A stretch of DNA of 64,000 nucleotides from assembly GCA_964437555.1 (NCBI GenBank), contig CAYTHI010000003.1:782-64781 (forward strand), given 5' to 3'. Of this stretch, positions 2,092 through 29,297 are shown piece after piece (the stretch's first letter is position 1; the number at the start of each line of letters is the position of its first letter). The position numbers were made by a program, and so were the translations under genes. Under the pieces are notes generated by a model that worked only from the letters and a program-made list of their open reading frames with translations, was not told the DNA's origin and searched no databases. This DNA comes from Candidatus Woesearchaeota archaeon. GTDB taxonomy: Archaea; Nanobdellota; Nanobdellia; Pacearchaeales; GW2011-AR1.

Positions 2092-2280
2092 TCAAGACTT
2101 ATCAGCTTTTTCTTTCCTATTCTGCTGTCTTTCTTTTAATGACTCAATTTCTTTTGTGAAGTACTCATATAACTCTTCCTGCCCTAATTCTTGAGCCAAT
2201 CTTCTTTTTTCTTCATGCAATTCTATCTGCTTTTGTATAGATGCTATTCCCCTCTTGAGCCGATTTTTTCTTTTTGCCAT
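2092..2280 (-). CDS. small coiled-coil protein, translationally coupled to upstream NTase gene
   Basis: 62 aa, K/R/E-rich helical. Its ATG overlaps the NTase stop (TAATG). Confidence 0.35.
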   Translation of the reverse strand: MAKRKNRLKRGIASIQKQIELHEEKRRLAQELGQEELYEYFTKEIESLKERQQNRKEKADKS

Positions 2281-3041
2281 TATATTTTTAGATTATCTTT
2301 TAATAAATTAAGGAGCTTTTCTAAATCTTGCGGATTTAATATGATAGTTAACTTTTGGTCTCTTTTAATTGATTTATATGCCTTATCTATTGCCTTGTAA
2401 TCTATTCCCCCGGCATTTTCTTCAATCCACGATTCAAAAGCATTATTTGAGTATTTCTTTCCTGACAATAAGCATTTAATTATATATAGGCCTTTTAATC
2501 TCAATATCAGAGAGTAGGCAACCCCGTCTAAATTCTCTTTTCTGCTGATAAGTGATTTGTTTATTTTCATAATGCTTTTTGTTTCTTTTATATAGAATTT
2601 AAGATCTGATTTTTTAGGAGGGTATTTTTTTCTTAAATCCTCTAAAAGCTGCGCGTTTATTATGGGCTTTGCGTCAGAAAGAATTGAATAAATTAAAATT
2701 GGAGCAATTTTTATTGAGCCGGTTATGTCCTCTTTTTTTATGGAAATTATTTCATATCCTCTTGATTTTATTTTTATTTTCCTGCCTGAAATAATAAGCA
2801 AGTCTATGTCAGAGCCCGTTTCAGCTTCGTTTCTGGCATGAGAGCCATATAAGTAAAGCCCTTCTATTTCTTCAAGATGACTTCCTAATAATGATAAAAT
2901 CTTTTCTTTTAAGGATTTAGCAGGACGAACTATGATTACTTCCTGCCCGAGCCATTCTTTTGGGGCAAATATATGGGCGCCGTTACCTATTCCTGTGACT
3001 TTTCTTACTATCTGCTCATGATTTTCCAATTGCTTTAACAT
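2280..3041 (-). CDS. nucleotidyltransferase (Pol-beta/MNT superfamily) with N-terminal AbrB/SpoVT-like swapped-hairpin segment
   Basis: GSHARNEAETGSDIDLLII matches the GS-x9-DxD NTase motif. N-terminal VRKVTGIGNGAHIFAPKEWLGQEVIIV resembles the AbrB/MazE DNA-binding fold. Confidence 0.6.
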   Translation of the reverse strand: MLKQLENHEQIVRKVTGIGNGAHIFAPKEWLGQEVIIVRPAKSLKEKILSLLGSHLEEIEGLYLYGSHARNEAETGSDIDLLIISGRKIKIKSRGYEIISIKKEDITGSIKIAPILIYSILSDAKPIINAQLLEDLRKKYPPKKSDLKFYIKETKSIMKINKSLISRKENLDGVAYSLILRLKGLYIIKCLLSGKKYSNNAFESWIEENAGGIDYKAIDKAYKSIKRDQKLTIILNPQDLEKLLNLLKDNLKI

Positions 3042-3075: not shown

Positions 3076-3414
3076 TTGGGGCGGATGGTTTGGAAAGAAG
3101 GCGAAGGACTAAGAATAGAAGAGAAGCTGGACAATATCAAGAAAGAGATAATAGGGCTTGCGCAGGAGAAGAATACGGATGTCCTTTTTTTTTTTTGTAA
3201 AAAGTGCTCAATAAAGGAATATGAAAAAATTATTTATCCTGATGATAAGGAAGGTTTCGCGGAATTAATCAGGAGCAAGGGGCTTTATAACAAATTTTCT
3301 TCCCTTAATTATTTTAAGCTTGCTCCTGCAATAAGAAAAAAAGAGCTGGATGCAGAAATTCTGGGCTTAATCAAAAAGGAAAAGGATTTTAGGCTGTCAT
3401 TAAGGGATATTTGA
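3076..3414 (+). CDS. hypothetical protein
   Basis: 112 aa ORF. Contains a T12 homopolymer (3186-3197) encoding FFFF. 3-prime end overlaps antisense with the RadC fragment. Confidence 0.3.
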   Translation: MGRMVWKEGEGLRIEEKLDNIKKEIIGLAQEKNTDVLFFFCKKCSIKEYEKIIYPDDKEGFAELIRSKGLYNKFSSLNYFKLAPAIRKKELDAEILGLIKKEKDFRLSLRDI

Positions 3415-3582
3415 TAAGGGATATTCTTTTAGCATTCTGTTTGCCATGTCTGTGACATTTTCATTAATCGTTCCTGTCCTTAGAATTATCGCGAAAAGCT
3501 CCGCGTCGCTCAGCGCTTCTGCTCCGTGCTTCAGGAAACGCTCTCTGGGCTTTGATGAATCTGGGAGGTCTTTGATACGCAT
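3400..3582 (-). CDS. truncated RadC-like protein: N-terminal helix-hairpin-helix segment only, no JAB domain
   Basis: MRIKDLPDSSKPRERFLKHGAEALSDAELFAIILRTGT matches the RadC/UPF0758 N-terminus (LPxxxRPRERLxxxGxxxLSDxELLAILLRTG). ORF stops after 60 aa. No JAB (HxHPxG) motif downstream in any frame that I could see. Confidence 0.55.
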   Translation of the reverse strand: MRIKDLPDSSKPRERFLKHGAEALSDAELFAIILRTGTINENVTDMANRMLKEYPLSNIP

Positions 3583-3640
3583 GAATTTAGAACGAAAAGA
3601 AATTATTTAACTCTTATTACTGGGTTTTGGATTAATTCGA

Positions 3641-4018
3641 TTAAACAGGAACCACCATTGTCTGCTGTGGAAGGTTTTGTGTGTTTTCCTGAACAATAAT
3701 CGGATTAACTTCCCTAATCTGATTTCTTATCATTATCTCATAGAATAATCTTAGTTCGATGGTGTTTTCCTCAATTTTAGCTTCAAATTTCCATTTTGGT
3801 ATCTGTCTTAGATAGATTTTGTCTACTCTAAAAAACTTAGAGGCATCAAATATCTGAATTCCAACTATATATCTGTCTTCATCTATGTCAACTATCATAT
3901 TCTGAAATTCCAAGGAGAAGTCATATTCCCTGTTTTTTACCTTGAAAAATAAGATGTCATTTACATAATCATAGTCCATTTCCCCTTTTCCTTCCAGATG
4001 TCTTGTTTTTTGTTCCAT
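3641..4018 (-). CDS. DUF2283-like putative antitoxin
   Basis: N-terminus MDYDYVNDILFFKV resembles the DUF2283 YDxExDxLYI signature. Immediately downstream of, and 2 nt from, the DUF4258-like ORF. Confidence 0.45.
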   Translation of the reverse strand: MEQKTRHLEGKGEMDYDYVNDILFFKVKNREYDFSLEFQNMIVDIDEDRYIVGIQIFDASKFFRVDKIYLRQIPKWKFEAKIEENTIELRLFYEIMIRNQIREVNPIIVQENTQNLPQQTMVVPV

Positions 4019-4019
4019 T

Positions 4020-4337
4020 TTATATTCTTGGTATATTTGTGAAGTAAAATGACACTATTTTAATCTTTTGGTGTTGGATGTCTGCTATTATCCTCATTGT
4101 CTTTTTTTCGTGCTTGTAGAAAATAGCGTAATTTCCATTGTTTTGGATTCCTACCACTATTGGAGTATCGTGGAGGATATATTCCTTAAGCTTTTCACAT
4201 TTAAATATCTTCCTTTGCTTATCACTTAGTCTGAAGAAAGTATGCTCTGTGCATTCAATCTGTTCTGACTTGTAATCTTTGATTATGCTAAGAAACTCCT
4301 CAATTTCTAACTTTTTCGCTATTAAATTGCCATACAT
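4020..4337 (-). CDS. DUF4258-like putative toxin
   Basis: 105 aa. The ECTEHTFFRLSDKQRKIF segment resembles the DUF4258 HAxxRmxeRgI core. DUF4258/DUF2283 is a known two-gene TA arrangement. Confidence 0.45.
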   Translation of the reverse strand: MYGNLIAKKLEIEEFLSIIKDYKSEQIECTEHTFFRLSDKQRKIFKCEKLKEYILHDTPIVVGIQNNGNYAIFYKHEKKTMRIIADIQHQKIKIVSFYFTNIPRI

Positions 4338-4375
4338 TCAATTTTATGGATTTTTGAGATTATAATTTTTTCTTT

Positions 4376-4423
4376 TTAAGGTTCTCCTGGCTTGCTGGAA
4401 TCCGGGAGGTCTTTGATTCTCAT
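4376..4423 (-). pseudogene. second, paralogous RadC-like 5-prime gene fragment (15 codons then stop)
   Basis: Minus strand reads ATGAGAATCAAAGACCTCCCGGATTCCAGCAAGCCAGGAGAACCTTAA = MRIKDLPDSSKPGEP*. It is about 80 percent identical to the start of the 3400..3582 gene, and the differences are mostly synonymous. Confidence 0.5.
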
Positions 4424-4520
4424 TATCTTTCCTTAGTTAGAGGATTATAAAAATCAATTGTTGGGGAACCCAGCATAATTATTTAAAGGCAGAAATGTTT
4501 AAATAGCCAATGGGGAGGGT

Positions 4521-4766
4521 TTGGACATGGAACAGGCACAATTGATAGAAAGATTTGGAAATGATAGCGACTGGTTCTATAGGAATACTGATAAGTTAAG
4601 AGAGGAAGGATATGTAGATAAATTTGTAGCAATAAAAAATTTTCAACCCATTGCTTCTGACGAGAATATAGATGTCCTTATAGGCAAACTTGAGGAGAGA
4701 AAAGAAAACTTGGCCTTTGTGTTTATAGAATTTGTTTATCCAAAAGATTACGTTCTTCTTTTGTAA
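4521..4766 (+). CDS. small hypothetical protein (DUF5678-like?)
   Basis: 81 aa. KFVAIKNFQPIASDENIDVLIGKL resembles a small beta-rich DUF often found beside retropepsin-like genes. Weak call. Confidence 0.35.
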   Translation: MDMEQAQLIERFGNDSDWFYRNTDKLREEGYVDKFVAIKNFQPIASDENIDVLIGKLEERKENLAFVFIEFVYPKDYVLLL

Positions 4767-4767
4767 A

Positions 4768-5196
4768 ATGATTAAAATACCTGCCCAGATTGCTTATTTT
4801 GCTGGAGGTTTCAGGCCCATGCTTAAAGTTATACTCGCTTCTGAGGACCCCAAGATATTTCTTCCGATTAGTGCCATTATTGATACGGGCAGTCCGACGA
4901 CACTTATAGGAGGTGCGGACATGAGGAGAATGAGATTATCAAAGCTCCAGATAAACAAGATAATTGGCAGAAAGGAAGAAGTCGATATAGGCGGTAGCAA
5001 ACTGCAAACTATTAAGTTGAAGAATATGGGTTTTAGAATAGGAAATTATTTGAATACTCAATTAGATGTTCAATTTCCCTTGAGCGGTGAAGGTAAAAAA
5101 CAGCCTAGTCTTTTGGGAGTTGATTTTTTAGAGAAAACAAAAGCAAATTTTTGTTTTAACCCTCATAAGAGAGAGTCTTATCTAGAAATAGATTAA
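4768..5196 (+). CDS. retropepsin-like (clan AA) aspartic peptidase
   Basis: AIIDTGSPTTLIGG contains the hhhDTG(S/A) active-site motif of retroviral-type aspartyl proteases. ATG at 4768 (track start 4732 is a non-ATG start). Confidence 0.5.
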   Translation: MIKIPAQIAYFAGGFRPMLKVILASEDPKIFLPISAIIDTGSPTTLIGGADMRRMRLSKLQINKIIGRKEEVDIGGSKLQTIKLKNMGFRIGNYLNTQLDVQFPLSGEGKKQPSLLGVDFLEKTKANFCFNPHKRESYLEID

Positions 5197-8647: not shown

Positions 8648-9898
8648 ATGAAAGGGGTGTTTGTTATTGTTGATGGAGTTTCTGATGAAGCATGCAGTGT
8701 TTTGAATGGTAAGACGCCTTTGGAAGCTGCTGATACTCCCAATTTAGATTATTTTGCAGGCAAAAGCAAAATGGGGCATTGCTATCCTATTGGAGAAGGT
8801 ATTGCTCCTGAATCTTCAAGTGCTGTTGTTTCTTTATTTGGATATGATTACAGATATGCTCCCAGAGGACCTTTAGAGGCTGTTGGAGGAGGAATAAAAA
8901 TGGCAAAAGGAGATTTGGCTTTAAGATGCAATTTTGCAACTGTTGATGATTCTAACTGGAATATTCTAGACCCGAGAGCAGGAAGAACATTAACAACAAA
9001 GGAAGCAAGGAAACTTGCAGAAGCTATTAATGAGAAGGTTAAACTGCCTTTTAAGTTTGAGCTCTATCCAATGTCGCAGCATAGAGCAGTATTGGTGTTT
9101 AGAGGAGGGTTTTCTGATAATATAAGCAATGCAAATCCTTTTTACGGAGAAGGATTTTCTAGAATTCCTAGTAATTATAAAATGATCTGGGCGAAGCCGT
9201 TGGATGACGAGGATGATTCTAAGCTGTCCGCTGATTTAGTCAATCAATTCATAAGAAAAAGCAACGAGATTTTGGACAAACATCCTATCAATGTGTATAG
9301 AGCAAGAAAAGGGCTTTATTCAGCTAATTTTATTCTTTGCAGGGATGCTGGCAATTCTCCTGTTAAACTAAAGAAATTGCCTGGGAATTGGATGGCGCTT
9401 TCTTATATGCCTTTGGAGACAGGAATAGCAATGGCCGCCAAGATGGATTTGTATAAGTTCAGATATCCTAAAATAATGGGAATAGATGTGTATGACAATC
9501 TTTATTCAGGATTGAAGAAAGCAATGAGGAAGGCAATAAGAATGCTAAAAAGGAATTGGAATAAAGAGGATTATTTTTATATTCACATAAAAGAGACTGA
9601 TATTCCAGGGCACGATAATAAGCCGGATGATAAAGTCAAGATGATTGAAATGCTTGACAAGAAGCTGTTTTATTTCTTAAGAAAATTTATTGAGAAGCAT
9701 GATGCAAAGCTTTTAGTTACAGCAGACCATACAACTTCGTGCAGGCTGAAAGCGCACTCGGACAAGCCGGTGCCTGTGTTGTTTTATTCTAAGGATTTTG
9801 AGGCAGAGCCAGGAAAAAGATTTAGCGAGAAGTACGGATTGGAAGGAAGAAAGATTATGGCAAAAAAGCTTTTACAGCAGACACTTTTTCAAAGATAA
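8648..9898 (+). CDS. apgM: archaeal-type 2,3-bisphosphoglycerate-independent phosphoglycerate mutase (ApgM family)
   Basis: 416 aa, N-terminus MKGVFVIVDGVSDE typical of the ApgM/phosphopentomutase-like metalloenzyme family. Confidence 0.8.
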   Translation: MKGVFVIVDGVSDEACSVLNGKTPLEAADTPNLDYFAGKSKMGHCYPIGEGIAPESSSAVVSLFGYDYRYAPRGPLEAVGGGIKMAKGDLALRCNFATVDDSNWNILDPRAGRTLTTKEARKLAEAINEKVKLPFKFELYPMSQHRAVLVFRGGFSDNISNANPFYGEGFSRIPSNYKMIWAKPLDDEDDSKLSADLVNQFIRKSNEILDKHPINVYRARKGLYSANFILCRDAGNSPVKLKKLPGNWMALSYMPLETGIAMAAKMDLYKFRYPKIMGIDVYDNLYSGLKKAMRKAIRMLKRNWNKEDYFYIHIKETDIPGHDNKPDDKVKMIEMLDKKLFYFLRKFIEKHDAKLLVTADHTTSCRLKAHSDKPVPVLFYSKDFEAEPGKRFSEKYGLEGRKIMAKKLLQQTLFQR

Positions 9899-9931
9899 AG
9901 AGAATTCTGAAAAACAGGTGTTCTAATTGAA

Positions 9932-10648
9932 TTATTTGCTTTTAGCAATTCCCCATAATAAATTAAAATAAGTCTTGAAAGTATCAGCAAATTCTTTATC
10001 AATTATTTCAATTACTTGAATATCTTTTTTCTTTGTGAAGAAATAGAGTTTATTGTCAAAAACAATATATGCCACACCAAGGTTAATGTTTTCCGGTATA
10101 TATTTAATTTCTTGAGGAATAAATTCTCTCTTTTTATGAATCTTTCTATAATCATCAGTTTGTATCATTTTCCAATTTAAAGAGTTCAGCTGATGAATAA
10201 ATTGATTTTTCGATTCCCCCATTTGTTCTAATAGATAACCTCCTCTTCCCATAAAGAGTATTTCTGATTTTGAGTTAAGAGCGTTATTTATAAGCAGGCG
10301 TATTGCTCTTATTCCATATAAAATATTGACCTCCTGGTATCCCCGATGTAATTTATTTGTCTCTTTTTTAAAAACTGCGATTCCTTTCCTGAGATTCTCT
10401 ACCTTACCACTAAATTCTTCAACAATTAGTTCAGGGTTTATTGCAGAGAATATTTCTTTTCCTTGTACTTTCTTTCGAGAAATATATCCCTTATGAAATA
10501 GGGAGTTTATTACATCATATACTGTTCTTCTATCTATGTTTAGAAGTAATGCTATTTTCGGCGCTGAAAGTTCTTTTTCTCTTGCCAAAATCATATATAT
10601 TTGTGCTTCTTTTTCTGTAAATCCTAAGTCTTGCATTTCTTTAATCAT
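9932..10648 (-). CDS. TrmB-family transcriptional regulator
   Basis: N-terminal HTH: LGFTEKEAQIYMILAREKELSAPKIALLLNIDRRTVYDVINSLFHKGYI. Confidence 0.7.
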   Translation of the reverse strand: MIKEMQDLGFTEKEAQIYMILAREKELSAPKIALLLNIDRRTVYDVINSLFHKGYISRKKVQGKEIFSAINPELIVEEFSGKVENLRKGIAVFKKETNKLHRGYQEVNILYGIRAIRLLINNALNSKSEILFMGRGGYLLEQMGESKNQFIHQLNSLNWKMIQTDDYRKIHKKREFIPQEIKYIPENINLGVAYIVFDNKLYFFTKKKDIQVIEIIDKEFADTFKTYFNLLWGIAKSK

Positions 10649-14619: not shown

Positions 14620-14685
14620 TTATTCGAACTGCGTTCTCATACCTCCATTGGCTAGCAGCTTCGCCTTCGCTCAGTATACTATGAA

Positions 14686-14774
14686 AGCCTCTGGAGGGAA
14701 TTGAACCCCCAACCCTCAGTTTTTTTGCTTTTCTTGGTACAAAACTGATGCTCTAACCATTGAGCTACAGAGGC
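14686..14774 (-). tRNA. tRNA-Thr (anticodon UGU) with ~16-nt anticodon-loop intron
   Basis: Manual fold: acceptor GCCTCTG/CAGAGGC, D arm GCTC-AATGGTTA-GAGC, anticodon stem TCAGT/ACTGA flanking loop TTTGTA plus inserted CCAAGAAAAGCAAAAAA, T arm GGGGG-TTCAATT-CCCTC. Confidence 0.8.
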
Positions 14775-14814
14775 TTGTATTGTGAAAAGAAAATAGTCTT
14801 AAAAATCTATCGGA

Positions 14815-17592: not shown

Positions 17593-19467
17593 ATGCTGAA
17601 TAAAAGAGGGCAGGTCGCTATTTTTATCATAATTGCGATAATTATTGTAGGAGGAATAGTTTTATTTGTTTCATTCAGGGATGTTATTTTCGGAACGAGC
17701 ATTCCTGCTGAATTACAGCCGGTTTTTAATGCGTATCAGGCCTGCATTAATGAAGAAACTGAAAGAGGACTTAATTTATTAGCTAATCAGGGAGGAAGAA
17801 TAAATATTGATGAATCTGACTTAGGGAATGATTATTCGCCCTTTACAAAAAATCTTAATTTTTACGGAGTTTCTGTTCCTTATTGGTATAGACTTGACGA
17901 GAAAGGGTTCATTGAAGAGAACATCCCCGCGAGAGGAGACATGGAAGAAGAGCTTGCGCAGCTTATTGAAGAAAATCTGAATGATTGTGATTTATCTTCT
18001 TATTATGAGCAGGGATTTTATATTGATTTGCCTGATGAAATCTCTTCGTCAGTCAGCATTTCAAATAATAAAGTGGAAGTTTCTGTGGATGCTGGCTTAA
18101 GCGTATCAAAAAAAGATATTTCTGCTGTAAAAGGCAAATATGATTTAGAAACGCAAAGCAGGCTTGGAGAGTTTTATGATGCGGCAAGAAAACTTTATGA
18201 TTATGAAGCTGAGACAAATTTTGCAGAAGAATATTCTATAGATGTCATCAGATTGTATGCTCCTGTTGATGGGGTTGAAGTCCAGTGCAGCCCGAAAATC
18301 TGGAAGACAGGAGAAGAGATTGATGCTGTTAAGGAAGGATTGGAGTCAAATATAGCTGCGATAAAGTTTCAGGGGGACGATTTTACTCTGGGGAGTAAAG
18401 ATAACAAATATTTTGTTGTTGACGCAAATACAAAGGTTCCTGCCAGATTAATTTATTCCAAGGAATGGCCCAGCGTTTTTGAGATAAGCGGCGATAAAGT
18501 AACTAATGAACTGATGATTGCAGAAGCTATTGGAAATCAGCAGGGGCTTGGAGTGATGGGCTTTTGCTATGTTCCCTATCATTTTGTATATGACATGAGG
18601 TTTCCGGTTATGTTTCAAGTAGGGGACGGGGTTGATTTATTCCAGTTTCCTGTTACTGTGATTGTAGATAATAATCTGGCTAAGAAAGCTGAATTGCCGC
18701 AAATAAATTACCAGGAACCTAAATTCAGGATGTGCGATTTCAAGGAAGCAGAAGCCGAGATTCACACTTATGATGAAGAGCTTAATCCTGTTGAAGCAGA
18801 TGTAAGCTTTGAATGCCTTGAAGAATCATGCGATTTAGGAAGAACAGAAATCAAGAATGGAGATGCTGTTTTTGAAGGCAGTATTCCTATCTGTGTAAAT
18901 GGAAAAATAGTTGCCAAAGCAGAAGGATTTTCTGATGCAAGACAAACGTTTTCCTCAAATAGCGAAAGTGTTGCAAATGTAATCATGGAGAAAGAATATG
19001 AAGTTGGAGTTAATGTTATGGTTGCAGGAGGGGGCATGAAGGAAGGCGAGCAAGCAGTTATTTACTTTGAAAATGATGAAGGCGGCAGAAGCGCTGTTAT
19101 TCCAGGAAATGAGAAAGTCAAGCTTAAGGAAGGGCAATACAAAATTAAGGTTTATGTTTACGGGAATTCCGGAATTACAATCCCTGCTTCAAGCAAGAGG
19201 CAGTGCATTGATGCTGCCAGAGGGGGCTTTGCAGGATTTTTCGGAGCGACAAAAGAGGAATGCTTTAATATTGATATTCCTGAGACAAAGATTGATTATG
19301 CTCTTAAAGGCGGAGGGCAAGAGGAAAGTTATATCCTTAAAGATGAATTGATTTCAGAAGAGATAAATTTGGAAGTTCAGGAATTGCCTTCGCCTGATTC
19401 TTTGGAGCAATTGCAGTACAATTATGAGCTTTTCAACAGCATGGGGGTTGGAATATCATTCAGATGA
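17593..19467 (+). CDS. large pilin-like surface protein with class III (type IV pilin-like) signal peptide
   Basis: MLNKRGQVAIFIIIAIIIVGGIVLFV fits a basic-Gly cleavage motif with Gln at +1 followed by a hydrophobic stretch, as in archaeal prepilin-peptidase substrates. 624 aa. Confidence 0.5.
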   Translation: MLNKRGQVAIFIIIAIIIVGGIVLFVSFRDVIFGTSIPAELQPVFNAYQACINEETERGLNLLANQGGRINIDESDLGNDYSPFTKNLNFYGVSVPYWYRLDEKGFIEENIPARGDMEEELAQLIEENLNDCDLSSYYEQGFYIDLPDEISSSVSISNNKVEVSVDAGLSVSKKDISAVKGKYDLETQSRLGEFYDAARKLYDYEAETNFAEEYSIDVIRLYAPVDGVEVQCSPKIWKTGEEIDAVKEGLESNIAAIKFQGDDFTLGSKDNKYFVVDANTKVPARLIYSKEWPSVFEISGDKVTNELMIAEAIGNQQGLGVMGFCYVPYHFVYDMRFPVMFQVGDGVDLFQFPVTVIVDNNLAKKAELPQINYQEPKFRMCDFKEAEAEIHTYDEELNPVEADVSFECLEESCDLGRTEIKNGDAVFEGSIPICVNGKIVAKAEGFSDARQTFSSNSESVANVIMEKEYEVGVNVMVAGGGMKEGEQAVIYFENDEGGRSAVIPGNEKVKLKEGQYKIKVYVYGNSGITIPASSKRQCIDAARGGFAGFFGATKEECFNIDIPETKIDYALKGGGQEESYILKDELISEEINLEVQELPSPDSLEQLQYNYELFNSMGVGISFR

Positions 19468-22400
19468 GAAAAATAATATTATCTTTCTTTTTTGTATCTT
19501 TACTTGGCTTGGTTTTTGTTGGTTTAGCAGGCGCGCAGACAGCTACTTTTGTAAATCATGTTTCTCCTGATTTCAGGCAATATTATTCTGCTGAGGAAAG
19601 GCTTGGGCAGTATTATCCTATTTTCTCCCAGGAAGATGAATTTTGCAGAAACAGGCAGGATATAATATTACAAGTTGCTCCGGCGGGATGCCAGCCGACT
19701 GTTGTAAGAAGTGATTTGCTTGCTGAGCAAAATGTTCCTGTTTTCTGCCAACTGCAGGCAATACAGGCAAATCCGTTGGTTGATATAAAGCAGATAAGAA
19801 ATATAAGATTCAGCGGCAGATATCCTGCTGAAATTTCAGGAACAGGTTTTCATCCTGCTAAAGCTGCATTAAGGACAGGAAATGTTTTGCTGGGAAATCC
19901 TGTTTTAAATGATGTAGGATATGTTGTAGTTGTATTGAAGAAAAATCCGAATGAAAAAGAATTGCCTGATTTTGTCAATGCAACCCTTACTGCTAATTTA
20001 GATTATTATGCCGGCAATGCTTTTGGGATAGGCTCAAGCGAATTACTTTTGCAGGTAGTTGATGATAGTAAATGGAATTCCGTGAGAAACAAGCAGAGCT
20101 TTTTGAACGGCGAATATTTCTTCAGATTAGAAGACGCCGAGCCGGAATTTGCGATTGTTTCTGTTTATCATCAGGACAGAAAAATTAATACAGTAAGAAT
20201 AAGCAGAGCAGAGGCATCAGAAAAGATTTATCTTCCCGGCTTGTACTGCGGAGGAGAGCTTAGATTAAAGTATGACGGATTTGTTTCTCCTGAAAATATT
20301 GCAAGATTAAAAGTTGGAGACGATGAAATTGAGGTTTATGAAGGCAGCAGTTTTCTTAATAATAAATGTGTTGTCAGAGACATTAGATTTACCAGCAATA
20401 GCGAAGGAAGTGTTGATGTTGTCTGCGGAACAGAAAGATTCAGCTTAAGCATAAATCCCGAAAGGCTGAATACGGGAGATTTAGTCAAGTTTGCTGATAA
20501 GGCAGAGAGCGCAGAACTTTGGAGTGTTGTTGGTTTTGAAGAAAATTCTGACGGGAAGAAAATAAGAATTACTAATTTAGCAGGAACAGAAAGCAGAACT
20601 ATTTCTTATTCAGAAATTGTTCCTGCTGATGAAGGCAGGCTTTATGAGGCAGTATATAATGCAGGCATTGAGGATTACATAAAGCAATCTATTGACAGCT
20701 ACGAGAGAACAGCCGTTGATTATTCAGCTGAAAAAGACAACTCCGGATTTTACGGGGAGAGAGCTCTTGAAAAGGGAATTGAATTTGCTGATAATACAAA
20801 CAAAGAAGTTACAGAAGCAAGATTAATCAATCTGCTCTTGGAGCAATACCCTTCTGCAAATAACTTTTCAAAATACAGCGACAAGCTTAACAGGATGTAC
20901 AGCATTAATTCTGACAAGGCAGTTGCGGTTGTGGATATTGATAATGATTATAAGACAATAAAATTAATTGGCTTTAGAGCGCCGGAGAAAAAATCTACGG
21001 CAACCATTGCATGGGGCGGAGAAAGATTCAGCGTTGAGCAGGGAAACAGCACTTCAGTCTCTCTTGGAAATCTGACTCTGAACAGGATTGAAAGAACAGG
21101 AATCAGCATTTCAGTTAAATGCTTGGATAAGGATTTAAGCGGAGGCAATTTCAATGTTAAAGTTGATGAAACTCAAAGAGGTGTTTGCGGAAGGGATTTG
21201 TCAATTGTAAATCTGAATATAGAAGATTTTGCCAGGATAAAAGTTGAGCCTGCAACAAGAACAACAGGACAGACAAACATAAGTATCAATATTGGAATTG
21301 AAAAAAGAGCGATACAGCTTTCTCCTGAGAAGGCGAGAGAGAAAATAGAAAATTTGAATAAAACCATTGAAAAATGGGAATCTGTTTCTAATAGCCTTGG
21401 AAATGTTGTAACAGGATTGAAGGCGGCGTGCTTTGCAACTTCAGGAATTCTGACTGCAAAGAATTTTCTTACAGGATTAAGCGGAGAAGCTTTGGCAAGG
21501 CAAAAAGTTATGAGAGACAGAGGAGGCTGGACAGACAGATGCACTAATGCTGTAAGCAGAGGAGAGTATTCAAGTATGGATGAATGTTTCAGGCAGAATG
21601 CAGGAGCCATTAGCGGCGATGTAAAATCAATGACAGAGGCGTTGAATCAGGTCAATGACAGGATTAAAGGAATACAGGGAGATTATGTCAAGCCCGCAGG
21701 AATTTTTGGAGAGACAATTACAGTTGATACAGACGGATTAAAACAAACCAACTTAGATTATATAAAACAGACTTATGGAAATTCTAATATAGAAAGCACG
21801 ACATCTAGCAATCAGCAGCTTGTTCTTGGTGATGTCATAGGGAGATTGCAAAGTGCTGATTCTCTTTCTCTTGATAAAATGAGTGATATTGAACTTTATG
21901 CAAAGCTGATTGATAATCAGGGAATAAGCAATGAGCAGAAAGAATTGTACAAGCAGAGACTTGGTTTTATTCTTGAGGATGTTGAAAAAAGGAATACAGC
22001 AGATAGCGAAAGAACGAGCTTTGAGACAGATACAGGATTTAAGGCGTATATTCCAAGCTATTCAAAGTCGGGAGAATATTATGGAAATGTTTATTCATCG
22101 GGAAAGATAAATTTAGGAAGCGGAGTTGATATTGAGGCGAATTCTCCTATCCAAGCTGTTCAGGGCAATGATGGAGCACAGTATTTGTTTGTTCTAAATG
22201 AGTTAAAGAATCAGGATGGGCAGACAATCTATTCTTATGACAGAAATAAAATTTATAAACTGACTGATAATAATGGCTGGACAGCCAATGCATTGCCTGC
22301 AACTTTTGATGTTGACAAAAGCATTGGAAGTTTTTCCACTTTCAGGAGCTTGAATGCGGGAAGTTATAATTATGCTTTTGCGCAGGGAGAGGCTGTTGTG

Positions 22401-24833
22401 AAATATTATGAAAGAGAGCCATTTAAGGGAATGCCTGCAATGGTGCCAGTAGATGTTGAGTCCGGGTTTTATGCTGCGACAGAGCAAACATTGCCAGGAT
22501 TTGGAAATATAAAAGCATTTGAATCTTCAGGAAGAATAGTAGGATTTTATGTTTGTAATGTTATGGAAGACAAGAGAGTTGGATTTTTCTCTCCAGGATT
22601 TGGAGATGACAGATGCATTAGATTTGATTTAACAACAGGGCAGCCTTTAGATGTATTCCCGGGGTTAGATAGTAGTAAGGCAAAAAGATTAGTTGAGAAG
22701 GCAATTCAGGCATTAAATGAAGCCGCAAGGCAGTATGGAAAAAGCCAGGTTACTATTCTTGGAAAAGTTTTCCAGACAGGAGCGCCTGCTGCATCTTCTC
22801 CTGCAACGCAATGCCAGGATTTCATGTCCCCTGAAGACTGCCAGTTGCTTTTCAATGTTTGCGATCCTGTGATATGCCCTACTTCAAGATGTGATTTTGG
22901 AGGGCAATACCCTGTTGATAATGTAATACAATCAGGAATTGTTGGAAGTGCTTTATTATGCCTTCCTAATGCTAAAGAAGGAATTGTTGTTCCTGTCTGC
23001 CTGTCGGGAATAAAAGCAGGAGTGGATGGGTATTTATCTATATTGAAATCTCATCAGGCATGTTTGCAGGAAAATATTGATACGGGAAATACTGTTGGTG
23101 TATGTGATTTAATCACTTCTGTTTATGCTTGTGAATTTTTCTGGAGACAGGCAGCTCCTCTTGCTAATGTTTTATTGCCTAAGATAGTTGAGTTTGCTTA
23201 TACAGGAGGACAGGGGCAAGTCAGAGGAGGAGGAGAATATTTGACTGTTCAATCTGCTTGGAAGAATACGCAGGATTCAATAGACTATTTCACTAATTAT
23301 TATGCCAAGAATTCTTTTGATTCTTTCAGAGCAAGAAGTATTGAGGAGGCGGGAACTCCTTTCTGCAAGGCATTTGTTTCTGCTAAGTCACCGACGTCGT
23401 TTGATACGTTATTAGCGCCAGATTCACCGGCGCAATATCATGCATGGTTTAGAGAGACAATTTATAGTGATGCAACTGTTCCTTCCACATCGCAGTATAA
23501 ATTATTTTATCATATCTTTGCAGGAAACGACAGAGGGGCTGTTTTCAGTGTTTATTTGAAGGAGCCCCCGGAAAGCTCTTATTACAGGACAACGCCGCAA
23601 ATAATTGTAGCTTCCGGATTTGTTGCAAGAGGGCAGGCAGTCAGCGAAACAAAAGACTTCACTGCTCCTTCTGGATACAAACAGCTTTGCATAAGAGTGA
23701 ATGACCAGGAAGAATGCGGATTCAAGCAGGTTTCAACGAGCTTTGCAGTTGACTATTTGAAAGACCAGTTTGTAAAAGATGAATTGGGAAGGACAGACAT
23801 TAAGACTGAAGCTGAATGCATTTCAGGAAGTGTTAATCCCGGTGCTTTGCTGAATCCTAATATACAGGAGGCAGCACAGGAAGCAATTGACCCTGCTGTC
23901 TATAAAAGAGGGATTGTAAGGATTTGCTCTACTGAAAATCCCGGGCTTTCAACTGATTCTGCAAGATTCAAGGAAGTTGGATTCTGCGGCGATGAGAAAC
24001 TTGTTTGCTGGCTTGATACCAATAGTGTTGATACAGCATTAAGTGATAGCATTCCTGCGGATATAAAAGCAGGCATAAATAATCAGACGCTTTCTGAATT
24101 AGGGGGAGAAGCAGATAAAATATTGCAGGAAAATGGATTTGTTTTGAATGCAGAAGCTTTGTTAAAGATAGATAAGATTGTAACAGAAATAGATAAGTTA
24201 GTAGGAAAAGGAAGTGAATTAAAGAATCAGCAATCACTTGCATCTGATTATTCACAGAAAGCTGTTTCTATTGAGTCAGATATAGAAGACTTAATGAGAA
24301 ACTTATTTTTTGACAGAGATAAAGCTGCTTTATTGATTGAAAGAGGCAGACTTTATGAAGGGCTTGCAAGAATATTGATCGGGCCTGATTTTAAAGGTGA
24401 TTTTAAAGGATTAGGAAAGGCGAGCCACACAGAATGCAGAGAGCAAATGTGCTATTCTGTGGAAGGGCCTGGAGATGATGAATGCAATGTTGATGAGGAT
24501 TGTGCTAGTATAACAGGAAATAGTAATGGAGGGACAGGTCAAGAAGCAGCAGGAACAGCAGAGCAATCTTTAAGCATTAAGGATGGCATTTTGCACGGAA
24601 AGGAAGGAAGTTTTCTTTATACTGATAATGTGATTAGTCCTATTTATTTTGTTGGCACAAGAGTTTTCGTTGTACTTTCAGACAGAGCTATTTTAATAGG
24701 AGACATTAGTGAAGGAAAAATTGTTATCAATAGCAATCAGGTTAGTGATGCGCAGGAAAGAGGTTTTATTGATGAAAGTGTTTCTGCCCTTACGAGCAAA
24801 ATTGACGGGAAAGATTTTGACGGATTTTTTTAA
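19464..24833 (+). CDS. giant (1789 aa) Cys-rich secreted/cell-surface protein
   Basis: Sec signal MRKIILSFFFVSLLGLVFVGLAGAQT. Many Cys pairs. ATGA overlap with the upstream pilin-like gene. Uninterrupted 5.4-kb ORF. Confidence 0.7.
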   Translation: MRKIILSFFFVSLLGLVFVGLAGAQTATFVNHVSPDFRQYYSAEERLGQYYPIFSQEDEFCRNRQDIILQVAPAGCQPTVVRSDLLAEQNVPVFCQLQAIQANPLVDIKQIRNIRFSGRYPAEISGTGFHPAKAALRTGNVLLGNPVLNDVGYVVVVLKKNPNEKELPDFVNATLTANLDYYAGNAFGIGSSELLLQVVDDSKWNSVRNKQSFLNGEYFFRLEDAEPEFAIVSVYHQDRKINTVRISRAEASEKIYLPGLYCGGELRLKYDGFVSPENIARLKVGDDEIEVYEGSSFLNNKCVVRDIRFTSNSEGSVDVVCGTERFSLSINPERLNTGDLVKFADKAESAELWSVVGFEENSDGKKIRITNLAGTESRTISYSEIVPADEGRLYEAVYNAGIEDYIKQSIDSYERTAVDYSAEKDNSGFYGERALEKGIEFADNTNKEVTEARLINLLLEQYPSANNFSKYSDKLNRMYSINSDKAVAVVDIDNDYKTIKLIGFRAPEKKSTATIAWGGERFSVEQGNSTSVSLGNLTLNRIERTGISISVKCLDKDLSGGNFNVKVDETQRGVCGRDLSIVNLNIEDFARIKVEPATRTTGQTNISINIGIEKRAIQLSPEKAREKIENLNKTIEKWESVSNSLGNVVTGLKAACFATSGILTAKNFLTGLSGEALARQKVMRDRGGWTDRCTNAVSRGEYSSMDECFRQNAGAISGDVKSMTEALNQVNDRIKGIQGDYVKPAGIFGETITVDTDGLKQTNLDYIKQTYGNSNIESTTSSNQQLVLGDVIGRLQSADSLSLDKMSDIELYAKLIDNQGISNEQKELYKQRLGFILEDVEKRNTADSERTSFETDTGFKAYIPSYSKSGEYYGNVYSSGKINLGSGVDIEANSPIQAVQGNDGAQYLFVLNELKNQDGQTIYSYDRNKIYKLTDNNGWTANALPATFDVDKSIGSFSTFRSLNAGSYNYAFAQGEAVVKYYEREPFKGMPAMVPVDVESGFYAATEQTLPGFGNIKAFESSGRIVGFYVCNVMEDKRVGFFSPGFGDDRCIRFDLTTGQPLDVFPGLDSSKAKRLVEKAIQALNEAARQYGKSQVTILGKVFQTGAPAASSPATQCQDFMSPEDCQLLFNVCDPVICPTSRCDFGGQYPVDNVIQSGIVGSALLCLPNAKEGIVVPVCLSGIKAGVDGYLSILKSHQACLQENIDTGNTVGVCDLITSVYACEFFWRQAAPLANVLLPKIVEFAYTGGQGQVRGGGEYLTVQSAWKNTQDSIDYFTNYYAKNSFDSFRARSIEEAGTPFCKAFVSAKSPTSFDTLLAPDSPAQYHAWFRETIYSDATVPSTSQYKLFYHIFAGNDRGAVFSVYLKEPPESSYYRTTPQIIVASGFVARGQAVSETKDFTAPSGYKQLCIRVNDQEECGFKQVSTSFAVDYLKDQFVKDELGRTDIKTEAECISGSVNPGALLNPNIQEAAQEAIDPAVYKRGIVRICSTENPGLSTDSARFKEVGFCGDEKLVCWLDTNSVDTALSDSIPADIKAGINNQTLSELGGEADKILQENGFVLNAEALLKIDKIVTEIDKLVGKGSELKNQQSLASDYSQKAVSIESDIEDLMRNLFFDRDKAALLIERGRLYEGLARILIGPDFKGDFKGLGKASHTECREQMCYSVEGPGDDECNVDEDCASITGNSNGGTGQEAAGTAEQSLSIKDGILHGKEGSFLYTDNVISPIYFVGTRVFVVLSDRAILIGDISEGKIVINSNQVSDAQERGFIDESVSALTSKIDGKDFDGFF

Positions 24834-24838
24834 CAACA

Positions 24839-24922
24839 TGCGGGAAAGAGGATTCGAACCTCTGTAAGCACTAAGCTACTTGGTCCTAAGCCAAGCCCGT
24901 TTGACCACTCCGGCATTCCCGC
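24839..24922 (-). tRNA. tRNA-Leu (anticodon UAG)
   Basis: Manual fold: acceptor GCGGGAA/TTCCCGC, anticodon stem CTTGG/CCAAG with loop CTTAGGA, long variable arm, T arm AGAGG-TTCGAAT-CCTCT. Confidence 0.85.
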
Positions 24923-29138: not shown

Positions 29139-29165
29139 ATAGGTTTTTTTGACTTTCTTTGTGAT

Positions 29166-29253
29166 GCTCCCGTAGCTCAGCCTGGATAGAGCATCGGACT
29201 TCTAATAAGAAGAAGGAATCCGGGGGTCGCAGGTTCAAATCCTGTCGGGAGCG
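29166..29253 (+). tRNA. tRNA-Arg (anticodon UCU) with ~13-nt intron
   Basis: Manual fold: acceptor GCTCCCG/CGGGAGC, D arm GCTC...GAGC, anticodon stem TCGGA/TCCGG with loop CTTCTAA and inserted TAAGAAGAAGGAA, T arm GCAGG-TTCAAAT-CCTGT. Confidence 0.8.
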
Positions 29254-29297
29254 TTTTATTTAAGTAGATTTATATACCCTTATCAATAGAAATTTTT

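What the first reader, a model, noticed from the sequence alone, without database searches (positions are those of the whole stretch)
3400..4425. DUF4258/DUF2283-like toxin-antitoxin cassette lodged between two paralogous RadC-like 5-prime gene fragments
The minus-strand ORF at 3582 encodes only the HhH N-terminus of a RadC/UPF0758 protein (60 aa, no JAB domain). 840 bp further on, 4423..4379 encodes MRIKDLPDSSKPGEP-stop. The two copies share the first 14 residues but differ at third codon positions (cgt/aga, tca/agc, cca/ccg). This means they descend from two diverged but once-selected radC paralogs rather than from a fresh target-site duplication. Between them sit a 105-aa DUF4258-like ORF and a 125-aa DUF2283-like ORF, 2 nt apart, the order seen in known DUF4258/DUF2283 TA pairs. 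This suggests that RadC-like genes, which are themselves frequent cargo of mobile elements, serve here as insertion or recombination sites for a TA cassette.
Basis: partly seen in the sequence, partly recalled or inferred. Interest (0 to 1): 0.5.

Follow-up and report, generated by a model that had tools for sequence, protein, structure and literature searches.

The report
Toxin-antitoxin operon flanked by radC remnants
An intact toxin–antitoxin gene pair in the variable "defence island" of a tiny DPANN archaeon is flanked by two dead leftovers of a radC gene; these are recombination and deletion scars of ordinary island turnover, not a new kind of element.

Summary

The decisive evidence is metagenomic locus L095. 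It carries the same toxin, antitoxin and spacer, then a full-length 225-aa radC, at 88% DNA identity over 969 nt. So copy A is the radC that natively follows the cassette. It was cut at codon 56 by a ~3.7-kb deletion that also removed type I restriction-modification genes. Copy B is the orphaned promoter plus 15 codons of another radC allele, and it abuts the left edge of that block exactly.

The site, downstream of SRP54, is a hypervariable defence island. Close relatives carry different cargo there, plus radC stubs cut at other points. In DPANN archaea radC usually sits beside type I R-M genes.

Site-specific insertion is not supported. The finding is ordinary island turnover and of modest interest.

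The parts
4376..4423 (-). radC copy B: start codon, 15 radC-like codons (MRIKDLPDSSKPGEP) and stop. This is an orphaned 5' remnant of a radC allele.
   Evidence: tblastn with full-length radC matches aa 1-14. It is 84% identical over 49 nt to the radC start of L095. It ends exactly where homology to the L095 cassette block begins.
4445..4453 (-). A/T-rich TATA-like element (TTTTTATAA) 22-30 nt upstream of the copy B ATG. Presumed archaeal promoter of the lost radC.
   Evidence: Read directly from the sequence. Function is inferred, not tested. This upstream region has no homologue in other loci.
4338..4377 (-). Left flank of the toxin-antitoxin block, with a TATA-like AAATTATAAT about 23-31 nt upstream of the toxin ATG. 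Presumed own promoter of the operon.
   Evidence: Homologous to L095 5204-5243, where GAAAAATTA(T/G)AATCTC is conserved. Promoter function is inferred.
4020..4337 (-). Toxin gene (105 aa). RelE/ParE-superfamily (BECR) fold, closest to MqsR. Family pre-annotated as PF27370 'MJ0788'.
3641..4018 (-). Antitoxin gene (125 aa) with an N-terminal DUF2283 domain (aa 14-60) and a C-terminal extension.
   Evidence: Pfam PF10049, E 2.1e-8, above the cut-off. Always immediately downstream of the toxin gene in L002-L005, L095 and L113. omega 0.03 against L095.
3583..3640 (-). Spacer between the antitoxin gene and radC copy A, with TATA-like TTAAATAA (3603-3610). This is the native radC upstream region.
   Evidence: About 90% identical to the spacer upstream of the intact radC in L095. 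Similarity to other radC upstream regions extends 13-33 nt upstream of the ATG.
3415..3582 (-). radC copy A, radC-derived part (codons 1-56 of the HhH/UPF0758_N domain). Truncated pseudogene remnant.
   Evidence: Pfam UPF0758_N E 1.4e-19. 92% aa identity to the N-terminus of the full-length radC of L095. Full-length radC is the norm in relatives.
3513..3582 (-). Divergent patch within copy A (codons 1-23): 31% mismatch to L095, against 7% for codons 24-56 and 9% for the toxin-antitoxin genes. A recombinant tract from another radC allele.
   Evidence: Change-point analysis: Fisher p 5.6e-5 and 1.2e-6, permutation p 0.002. pS 0.77 against 0.34.
3400..3424 (-). Deletion junction. radC codon 56 (ends at 3415) is fused to the stop codon of the convergent 112-aa gene (3412-3414). 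The last 5 codons of the 60-aa ORF (SNIP*) are the antisense of that gene's end. The 10-nt ATATCCCTTA occurs on both sides (3415-3424 and 3401-3410).
   Evidence: Alignment to L095. In L095, 3,687 nt lie between these two points: the rest of radC, hsdM and an AlbA_2/HATPase_c_4 gene. Sequence read.
3076..3414 (+). Convergent 112-aa gene of unknown family. It forms the right edge of the deletion.
   Evidence: 60% aa identity to the L095 119-aa ORF (9856-10215), which lies beyond hsdM in that locus. No Pfam or PADLOC hit.

Best explanation
The region combines one working module and two scars, inside the hypervariable defence island downstream of SRP54 in a Pacearchaeota-like DPANN genome.

(1) The working module is an intact type II toxin-antitoxin operon with its own promoter. 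The toxin is a 105-aa protein with a RelE/MqsR-type fold. It most likely arrests growth by cleaving mRNA. The co-transcribed 125-aa DUF2283 protein most likely neutralises it by direct binding. The activity is inferred and was not tested here.

(2) radC copy A is what remains of the full-length radC gene that natively follows this cassette. A ~3.7-kb deletion removed radC codons 57-225 (the JAB domain) together with the adjacent convergent type I R-M genes. It fused codon 56 to the stop codon of the next convergent gene.

(3) radC copy B is the orphaned promoter plus first 14-15 codons of a second radC allele. It was left behind when the toxin-antitoxin-radC block was joined to another radC-bearing module. 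There are two likely routes. One is one-ended homologous recombination, with radC as the anchor and an illegitimate left junction at a GAAC microhomology (HFIR-like). The other is deletion between two adjacent radC-bounded modules.

radC is therefore a recurrent recombination and erosion point because it is a conserved gene embedded among rapidly exchanged defence genes. It is not the target of a dedicated integrase.
For: Module:
- The toxin/DUF2283 pair is adjacent and co-directional in five other contexts.
- omega is 0.09 for the toxin and 0.03 for the antitoxin at dS about 0.5.

Copy A:
- L095 has the same toxin (89% aa), antitoxin (95% aa) and spacer, then a 225-aa radC with HNHPSG...PSQED. 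Identity is 88% over 969 nt, ending at window 3415.
- Beyond that point L095 has hsdM, an AlbA_2 gene and the homologue of the window's 112-aa gene.
- The window has no JAB sequence.

Copy B:
- Its radC similarity stops exactly at the left edge of the L095 homology block, with GAAC/GAAAC shared by both parents.
- Its upstream region is unrelated to the copy A spacer.
- The differences between A and B are mostly synonymous.

Island context:
- PGM-FtsY-SRP54 synteny is conserved in the three nearest relatives. The DNA downstream of SRP54 differs in each and is rich in R-M and toxin-antitoxin genes.
- Orthologous radC stubs end at aa 33 (L092) and about aa 24 (L094), against 56 here.
- Other stubs abut RloB/AAA, HNH/MazE/type I R-M and Abi genes.
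- HsdR domains are the commonest neighbours of radC in 23 DPANN loci.

Recombination at radC:
- Codons 1-23 of copy A form a divergent patch.
- L024 has an exact 59-nt repeat of the radC 3' end around a 790-bp insert.
Against: - The order of events cannot be reconstructed. The divergent patch in copy A lies inside the L095-like block. This needs an extra gene-conversion step in one lineage under any scenario.
- Copy B is only non-significantly closer to L095's radC start than copy A is (7 against 13 mismatches in 45 nt, p 0.20).
- The same left boundary of the cassette block in the window and in L095 could hint at a discrete element end rather than a random illegitimate junction.
- The 10-nt repeat kept on both sides of the right junction is not what a simple microhomology deletion leaves behind.
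- Toxicity, neutralisation and promoter activity are all untested.
- All sequences are metagenome assemblies, and the junctions were not checked against reads.
Confidence: 0.6

Rival explanations
1. Site-specific integration. The ~0.85-kb cassette is a small integrative element, mobilised in trans, whose attachment site lies in radC. Copies B and A(1-15) would be attL and attR, with the 14-nt exact core as the crossover region.
For: An exact 14-nt core lies within a 46-nt imperfect direct repeat. L024 has a perfect 59-nt repeat of the radC 3' end around an insert of almost the same size, with spacing 849 against 841 bp. The left boundary of the cassette block coincides in the window and L095. 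From memory, not verified in the held papers: the Tn554 family inserts into radC in staphylococci.
Against: No recombinase or transposase was found among the island genes or the ten other window ORFs scanned. The duplicated segment is the 5' end of radC here and the 3' end in L024. Stub truncation points vary widely: about aa 24, 33, 38, 52, 54, 56 and 57. The two inserts share no end motifs or terminal inverted repeats. The L024 cassette is not homologous to this one. L095 has the cassette with no left-hand radC repeat. In L002, L004 and L005 the cassette has no radC nearby.
Confidence: 0.08
2. The 60-aa ORF is not a remnant. It is a functional stand-alone HhH (UPF0758_N) microprotein kept by selection, possibly as a third component of the toxin-antitoxin operon.
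For: It has its own TATA-like element. There are no non-synonymous changes in codons 25-56 against L095. Short UPF0758_N-only ORFs recur in many DPANN contigs. The stub's DNA is 88% identical to that of L092, while SRP54 is 77% identical.
Against: It ends inside the domain (profile positions 1-54 of 77). Its last five codons are the antisense of a neighbouring gene's end. Related stubs end at different points with unrelated tails. About 40 of 55 related loci encode the full 215-225-aa protein. The absence of non-synonymous change is also expected if the deletion is recent relative to the split from L095.
Confidence: 0.1
3. Two complete radC-bounded modules, DUF5678-Asp-protease-radC and toxin-antitoxin-radC, once lay side by side. 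A plain deletion removed the first radC from codon 16 up to the cassette's left flank. Nothing was inserted into radC.
For: DUF5678->Asp-protease->radC is a recurrent arrangement (L006; L126). The window's DUF5678/Asp-protease pair lies directly beside copy B. L015 shows that two radC copies can lie 1.2 kb apart.
Against: In the window the DUF5678/Asp-protease pair is inverted relative to copy B, unlike in L006 and L126. The window pair is not detectably similar in sequence to those of L006 and L126. No locus with both complete modules in tandem was found.
Confidence: 0.22

Closest known systems
MqsR/MqsA, BrnT/BrnA and other RelE/ParE-superfamily (BECR-fold) type II toxin-antitoxin modules
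   Different: No sequence-level match to any of these families. The antitoxin is a DUF2283 protein rather than an HTH/zinc-ribbon MqsA or an RHH BrnA. No biochemical data exist for this family.
DUF4258 (PF14076) toxin family
   Same: It belongs to the same superfamily according to the 2025 review. Four of 25 homologues give weak DUF4258 hits. It is likewise uncharacterised.
   Different: The window protein has no DUF4258 hit at E <= 1. The family is pre-annotated as the separate Pfam entry PF27370. The review lists antitoxin-first order for DUF4258.
Homology-facilitated illegitimate recombination, and displacement arrays in T6SS effector-immunity and Rhs loci
   Same: A conserved gene serves as the homologous anchor, and new cargo is spliced in with one illegitimate junction. 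Orphaned gene ends and strings of leftover fragments remain (PMC3240628; PMC5361080). Here the scars are orphaned radC ends next to exchanged defence cargo.
   Different: Those systems are bacterial, and the anchor is part of the toxin system itself. Here the anchor is radC in an archaeal defence island. The mechanism is inferred from scars only. A microhomology (GAAC) is visible, but the homologous junction cannot be located.
RadC-like JAB genes in mobile elements and anti-restriction contexts
   Same: RadC-type JAB proteins with an N-terminal HhH domain are known to be common in conjugative elements and prophages, and to be fused to ArdC anti-restriction modules. Here radC is habitually next to type I R-M genes.
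   Different: In the window only the first 56 codons of the HhH domain survive. The published associations are bacterial. The linkage of radC to hsdR in DPANN genomes was seen here in about 10 of 23 loci and was not found described in the papers searched.

Membership tests
DUF4258 (PF14076) | Match to the Pfam model at or above its gathering score | tested here: not met
   No hit for the window protein at E <= 1. Only 4 of 25 homologues hit, with best E 0.04.
PF27370 'MJ0788' | Match to the Pfam model | tested here: inconclusive
   The model is absent from the local Pfam copy. The database's precomputed annotation lists PF27370 for the window protein and 22 of 26 homologues, flagged 'weak' in the contig look-ups.
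RelE/ParE (BECR-fold) toxin superfamily | Compact alpha/beta BECR fold | tested here: met
RelE/ParE (BECR-fold) toxin superfamily | RNase (or gyrase-poisoning) activity with basic/aromatic catalytic residues | not testable with these tools
   Invariant H32, R36, R42, K43 and Y74 are plausible catalytic residues. Their positions relative to the MqsR or RelE active sites were not mapped.
Type II toxin-antitoxin module | Two small adjacent co-directional genes whose pairing is conserved across unrelated contexts | tested here: met
   The pair is conserved in L002/3, L004, L005, L095 and L113, with different neighbours. The genes are 1 nt apart.
Type II toxin-antitoxin module | The toxin inhibits growth and the antitoxin protein neutralises it | not testable with these tools
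   This needs an expression experiment.
DUF2283 (PF10049) | Match to the Pfam model above its gathering score | tested here: met
   34.6 bits against 23, E 2.1e-8, aa 14-60. The L113 homologue also matches.
RadC / UPF0758 | N-terminal HhH (UPF0758_N) domain | tested here: met
   Copy A: E 1.4e-19, but only profile positions 1-54 of 77. Copy B: 14 residues only.
RadC / UPF0758 | C-terminal JAB/MPN domain with the HxHxxxxxxxS..D metal site | tested here: not met
   No motif or tblastn hit anywhere in the window. The domain is present in L007, L095 and about 40 other relatives.
Site-specific integrative element (att-flanked) | Identical core repeats at a fixed target position, plus a recombinase | tested here: not met
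   A 14-nt core exists. However, no recombinase was found, the radC positions vary and there are no shared end motifs.
Homology-facilitated illegitimate recombination product | One junction within homology to the recipient, and one illegitimate junction at a short microhomology | tested here: inconclusive
   The left junction shows GAAC/GAAAC shared by the radC and cassette parents. The homologous junction cannot be located, because the rest of radC is deleted and the 5' patch complicates the picture.

The most novel reading that the evidence does not exclude
In DPANN archaea radC may be more than a bystander. It could be the conserved homologous anchor of type I R-M/toxin-antitoxin defence islands, through which whole cargo blocks are exchanged between lineages. 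The duplicated radC ends (5' here, 3' in L024), the mosaic 5' tracts and the nested stubs would be regular by-products of that exchange. That would make radC a usable marker for finding and dating defence-island turnover in these genomes.
Probability: 0.3. Interest if true: 0.5.

Novelty: new member of a known kind. Interest (0 to 1): 0.3.

Why it matters
The finding adds an uncharacterised archaeal pairing to the catalogue of type II toxin-antitoxin modules: a RelE/MqsR-fold toxin (PF27370) with a DUF2283 antitoxin. It also documents, at nucleotide resolution, how a DPANN defence island turns over. Cargo blocks are swapped, a conserved neighbour gene (radC) is duplicated at its ends and eroded, and type I R-M genes are lost. 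If the link between radC and type I R-M genes, and the radC-end scars, prove general, they offer a simple handle for tracing horizontal exchange of defence genes in organisms that cannot be cultured. As a single locus it is not surprising to a specialist.

Tried and rejected
- The word-indexed homologue search with the 60-aa stub returned only short proteins of 38-103 aa. This briefly suggested a stand-alone family or universal truncation. The genome and metagenome scans showed full-length radC in about 40 of 55 relatives, so the first result was a search bias combined with contig-end fragments.
- The exhaustive representative search with the stub was uninformative, because metagenomic fragments dominate the length distribution.
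- A profile search of the toxin family against PDB sequences found nothing, best E 0.7.
- The afdb50 fold library was unavailable. Foldseek against PDB gave no significant E-values.
- The L024 cassette was tested for homology to the window cassette and rejected. Only its architecture is parallel.
- Synteny of radC flanks across 15 DPANN genomes showed none.
- A search for shared end motifs or terminal inverted repeats in the two inserts found none above shuffles.
- PADLOC has no model matching the toxin or the antitoxin.
- The 2026 BECR classification preprint was not held. The S. sciuri paper retrieved for radC integration does not mention radC in its main text. So the Tn554-in-radC parallel rests on memory only.
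- The possible radC-like fragments in L014 (12 of 14 aa, 31 of 42 nt to its own radC) and L025 are too weak to count.
Full report
**1. What is in the sequence**

On the minus strand, reading from high to low coordinates, the region contains:
- a 15-codon ORF, MRIKDLPDSSKPGEP (4423-4379, stop at 4378-4376);
- a 105-aa ORF (4337-4020);
- one nucleotide later, a 125-aa ORF (4018-3641);
- a 58-nt spacer;
- a 60-aa ORF (3582-3400).

The 60-aa ORF matches Pfam UPF0758_N (E 1.4e-19), but only profile positions 1-54 of 77. It matches only the N-terminal ~45 positions of the NCBIfam RadC models.

The two radC starts form a 46-nt direct repeat of 76% identity, 841 bp apart. An exact 14-nt core occurs nowhere else in the window. 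The upstream regions do not align.

Residues 1-12 are identical. Over codons 1-12, pS is 0.63 against pN 0.11. So the two copies do descend from different, once-selected alleles.

No JAB motif and no JAB-like tblastn hit exist anywhere in the 64 kb.

**2. The two-gene cassette**

The 125-aa protein is DUF2283 (34.6 bits against a cut-off of 23).

The 105-aa protein has no hit in the local Pfam. Its 27 homologues come mostly from Pacearchaeota and Nanoarchaeota metagenomes, and the database pre-annotates them as PF27370 "MJ0788". Only 4 of 25 members give weak DUF4258 hits, best E 0.04. One each hits HigB-like and PBECR3.

Foldseek's top names are the same toxins, but none is statistically significant.

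A 2025 review lists DUF4258 among 13 BECR-fold type II toxin families. It is uncharacterised and has antitoxin-first order. MqsR and BrnT are toxin-first, like this cassette. I therefore call the toxin a RelE/ParE-superfamily member related to DUF4258 only distantly.

The toxin/DUF2283 pair is adjacent and co-directional in five other contexts with unrelated neighbours: L002/3, L004, L005, L095 and L113. Against L095, omega is 0.09 for the toxin and 0.03 for the antitoxin, at dS about 0.5.

This is the signature of an intact, mobile type II toxin-antitoxin module. RNase activity and neutralisation are inferred, not shown.

**3. radC is normally full-length**

My first homologue search returned only short UPF0758_N proteins with different unrelated tails. 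Scans of genomes and metagenomes corrected this. About 40 of 55 DPANN-type loci encode a 215-225-aa radC with the HNHPSG...PS..D site.

True stubs are a minority: the window, L006, L009/10, L011, L092, L094, L101 and L132. L007/8 carry a frameshifted full-length gene.

**4. The key comparison, L095**

A 19.8-kb metagenomic contig carries:
- SRP54 (79% aa identity);
- then other island genes;
- then the same toxin (89% aa), antitoxin (95% aa) and spacer;
- then a full-length 225-aa radC;
- then convergent hsdM, an AlbA_2/HATPase_c_4 gene, and a 119-aa gene that is 60% identical to the window's convergent 112-aa ORF.

DNA identity is 88% over 969 nt, from window 4377 to 3415. Two conclusions follow.

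(a) The order toxin-antitoxin->radC is a pre-existing linked arrangement, and copy A is that block's own radC.

(b) Copy A was truncated by a deletion of 3,687 nt (in L095 coordinates). The deletion fused radC codon 56 (…GAA TAT CCC TTA, ending at 3415) directly to the stop codon of the 112-aa gene (3412-3414). The last five codons of the "60-aa ORF" are simply the antisense of that gene's end.

An unexplained detail is that the 10-mer ATATCCCTTA is present on both sides of this junction.

**5. Copy B**

Its radC similarity ends exactly at the left edge of the block shared with L095. A GAAC/GAAAC microhomology is common to the radC and cassette parents. It is 84% identical to L095's radC start. 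Its own upstream region, which has a TATA-like element, has no counterpart elsewhere.

Within copy A, codons 1-23 (3582-3513) are a divergent patch:
- 22 of 70 mismatches to L095, against 7 of 98 afterwards;
- 9% mismatch in the toxin-antitoxin genes;
- Fisher p 5.6e-5 and 1.2e-6, permutation p 0.002.

So at least three radC alleles have contributed to this ~1-kb stretch.

Copy B is closer to L095's start than copy A is (7 against 13 mismatches in 45 nt), but not significantly so (p 0.20).

The simplest reading is that a toxin-antitoxin-radC block was joined to a resident radC-bearing module. One route is one-ended homologous recombination with an illegitimate left junction. This is HFIR, as described in bacteria and invoked for orphan arrays in T6SS and Rhs loci. 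The other route is deletion between two neighbouring radC-bounded modules. The order of events cannot be resolved.

**6. The site is a hypervariable defence island**

The three nearest relatives by SRP54 (84-87% aa) share PGM-FtsY-SRP54 synteny. Immediately downstream of SRP54 their content differs entirely:
- L092: GmrSD/HNH, EcoRI-type methylase and MazE;
- L093: an ABC transporter and type I R-M genes;
- L094: methyltransferases, a cupredoxin, a kinase and an NTase.

None has an intact radC there. L092 has an orthologous stub ending at aa 33 (88% nt identity to the window, against 77% for SRP54). L094 has one ending at about aa 24, with an internal deletion. Together with the window (aa 56), this is a nested series of 3' erosions of one relatively GC-rich radC allele.

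Elsewhere, stubs abut RloB/AAA_21 plus methylases, HNH/MazE/type I R-M/Abi, or DUF5678 plus an Asp-protease.

Across 23 non-redundant DPANN loci, the commonest neighbours within 3 kb of radC are HsdR domains (8-9 ORFs), along with type I and II methyltransferases. L113 has radC, a convergent hsdR, and then the same toxin-antitoxin family.

The downstream neighbour of radC is typically convergent. Deletions or replacements of that cargo can therefore easily bite into the 3' end of radC.

**7. A parallel at the other end of radC**

In L024, a full-length radC is followed by a 790-bp insert with two small ORFs. Then comes an exact 59-nt repeat of the radC 3' end, and then hsdR. That cassette is not homologous to the window's.

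The two inserts share no end motifs or terminal inverted repeats. No recombinase was found among the window ORFs scanned.

Variable breakpoints, different radC ends and the absence of a recombinase all argue against a dedicated att-site system. They favour homology-driven recombination at a conserved gene.

**8. Verdict**

The two copies are diverged radC alleles and not a target-site duplication, and radC is a recombination point. It needs revising in three respects: the cassette and copy A form one pre-existing block, the loss of the JAB domain is a separate deletion, and the toxin is not a DUF4258 member.

The module is a new, uncharacterised member of a well-known kind, namely RelE-superfamily type II toxin-antitoxin systems. 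The radC remnants are ordinary scars of defence-island turnover.

The more general pattern is the most interesting lead, and it deserves a systematic survey. That pattern is radC habitually linked to type I R-M genes in DPANN archaea and repeatedly duplicated or eroded at its ends.

Noticed in passing
window 3401-3424: The 10-mer ATATCCCTTA occurs twice, 4 nt apart, on either side of the radC/112-aa-gene deletion junction. One copy is native radC (codons 53-56). The other is the antisense of the 112-aa gene's last codons. In L095 that gene end reads differently (TTGAAGGACATATAA). A simple microhomology deletion would leave one copy, not two.
   Followed up: partly
window 4521-5196 (+); L006 5314-5947; L126 5368-6004: A DUF5678 plus retroviral-type Asp-protease gene pair lies beside copy B. 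The same family pair sits directly upstream of radC in L006 and L126, where the protease gene overlaps the radC start in L126. In the window it is inverted. The protease weakly matches the PADLOC candidate PDC-M08B (E 7e-4). It may be an unrecognised two-gene defence or toxin-antitoxin-like module.
   Followed up: partly
window 2092-3041 (-); L128 7565-8396: A 253-aa protein combines a DUF2080/AbrB-like N-terminus with a Pol-beta nucleotidyltransferase domain. It gives weak hits to HalB, MntA and PADLOC PDC-S09/M05A. Its stop abuts the start of a 62-aa ORF. A homologous pair lies downstream of radC in L128.
   Followed up: partly
L024 1426-1484 and 2275-2333: An exact 59-nt direct repeat of the radC 3' end flanks a 790-bp insert with two or three small ORFs, between an intact radC and hsdR. 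Its architecture mirrors the window's. The insert is not homologous to the window's cassette.
   Followed up: partly
L015 3-218 (-) and 1447-1908 (+): Two divergently oriented radC copies, both running off the ends of a 1.9-kb contig, have two ORFs of unknown family between them. So radC can be present in more than one copy at a single locus.
   Followed up: no
L012-L026, L095-L130 (radC +/- 3 kb): In about 10 of 23 DPANN loci, a 770-1030-aa HsdR-type gene lies immediately downstream of radC, usually convergent. This radC-type I R-M linkage was not found described in the papers searched.
   Followed up: partly
window 3400-3582; L092 13969-14082; L094 about 10302-10390: The radC stub allele shared by these three genomes is markedly GC-richer than its surroundings: 44% over the whole stub, locally about 60%, against 36% for the window. 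This suggests relatively recent acquisition or a distinct origin.
   Followed up: no
L014 11767-11808: A possible radC fragment (RFLKYGAEVLSDAE) lies 3.1 kb downstream of that locus's intact radC. It matches its own radC at 12 of 14 aa and 31 of 42 nt. It starts inside a terminator-like hairpin. It is too short to be sure.
   Followed up: partly
L095 2985-3603; L006 6176-6472: L095 has a small gene pair: a 104-aa protein with a weak MC6 (ABC-3C middle component) hit, followed by a 107-aa protein with a RelE-like C-terminal sequence. The 104-aa protein has a clear homologue convergent to the radC stub in L006. This is further shared cargo between these islands.
   Followed up: no
window 14685-14775, 24839-24922, 29165-29254: The tRNA-Gly (91 nt) and tRNA-Arg (90 nt) genes are longer than usual, with anticodons at positions 37-38. 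They may carry archaeal introns. The 1,789-aa ORF at 19464-24833 was not examined.
   Followed up: no
vs 28/52 (method): The word-indexed protein search with a 60-aa query returned only short proteins. It missed the many full-length RadC relatives that the DNA-level scans found. Length distributions from that tool should not be read as biology.
   Followed up: yes
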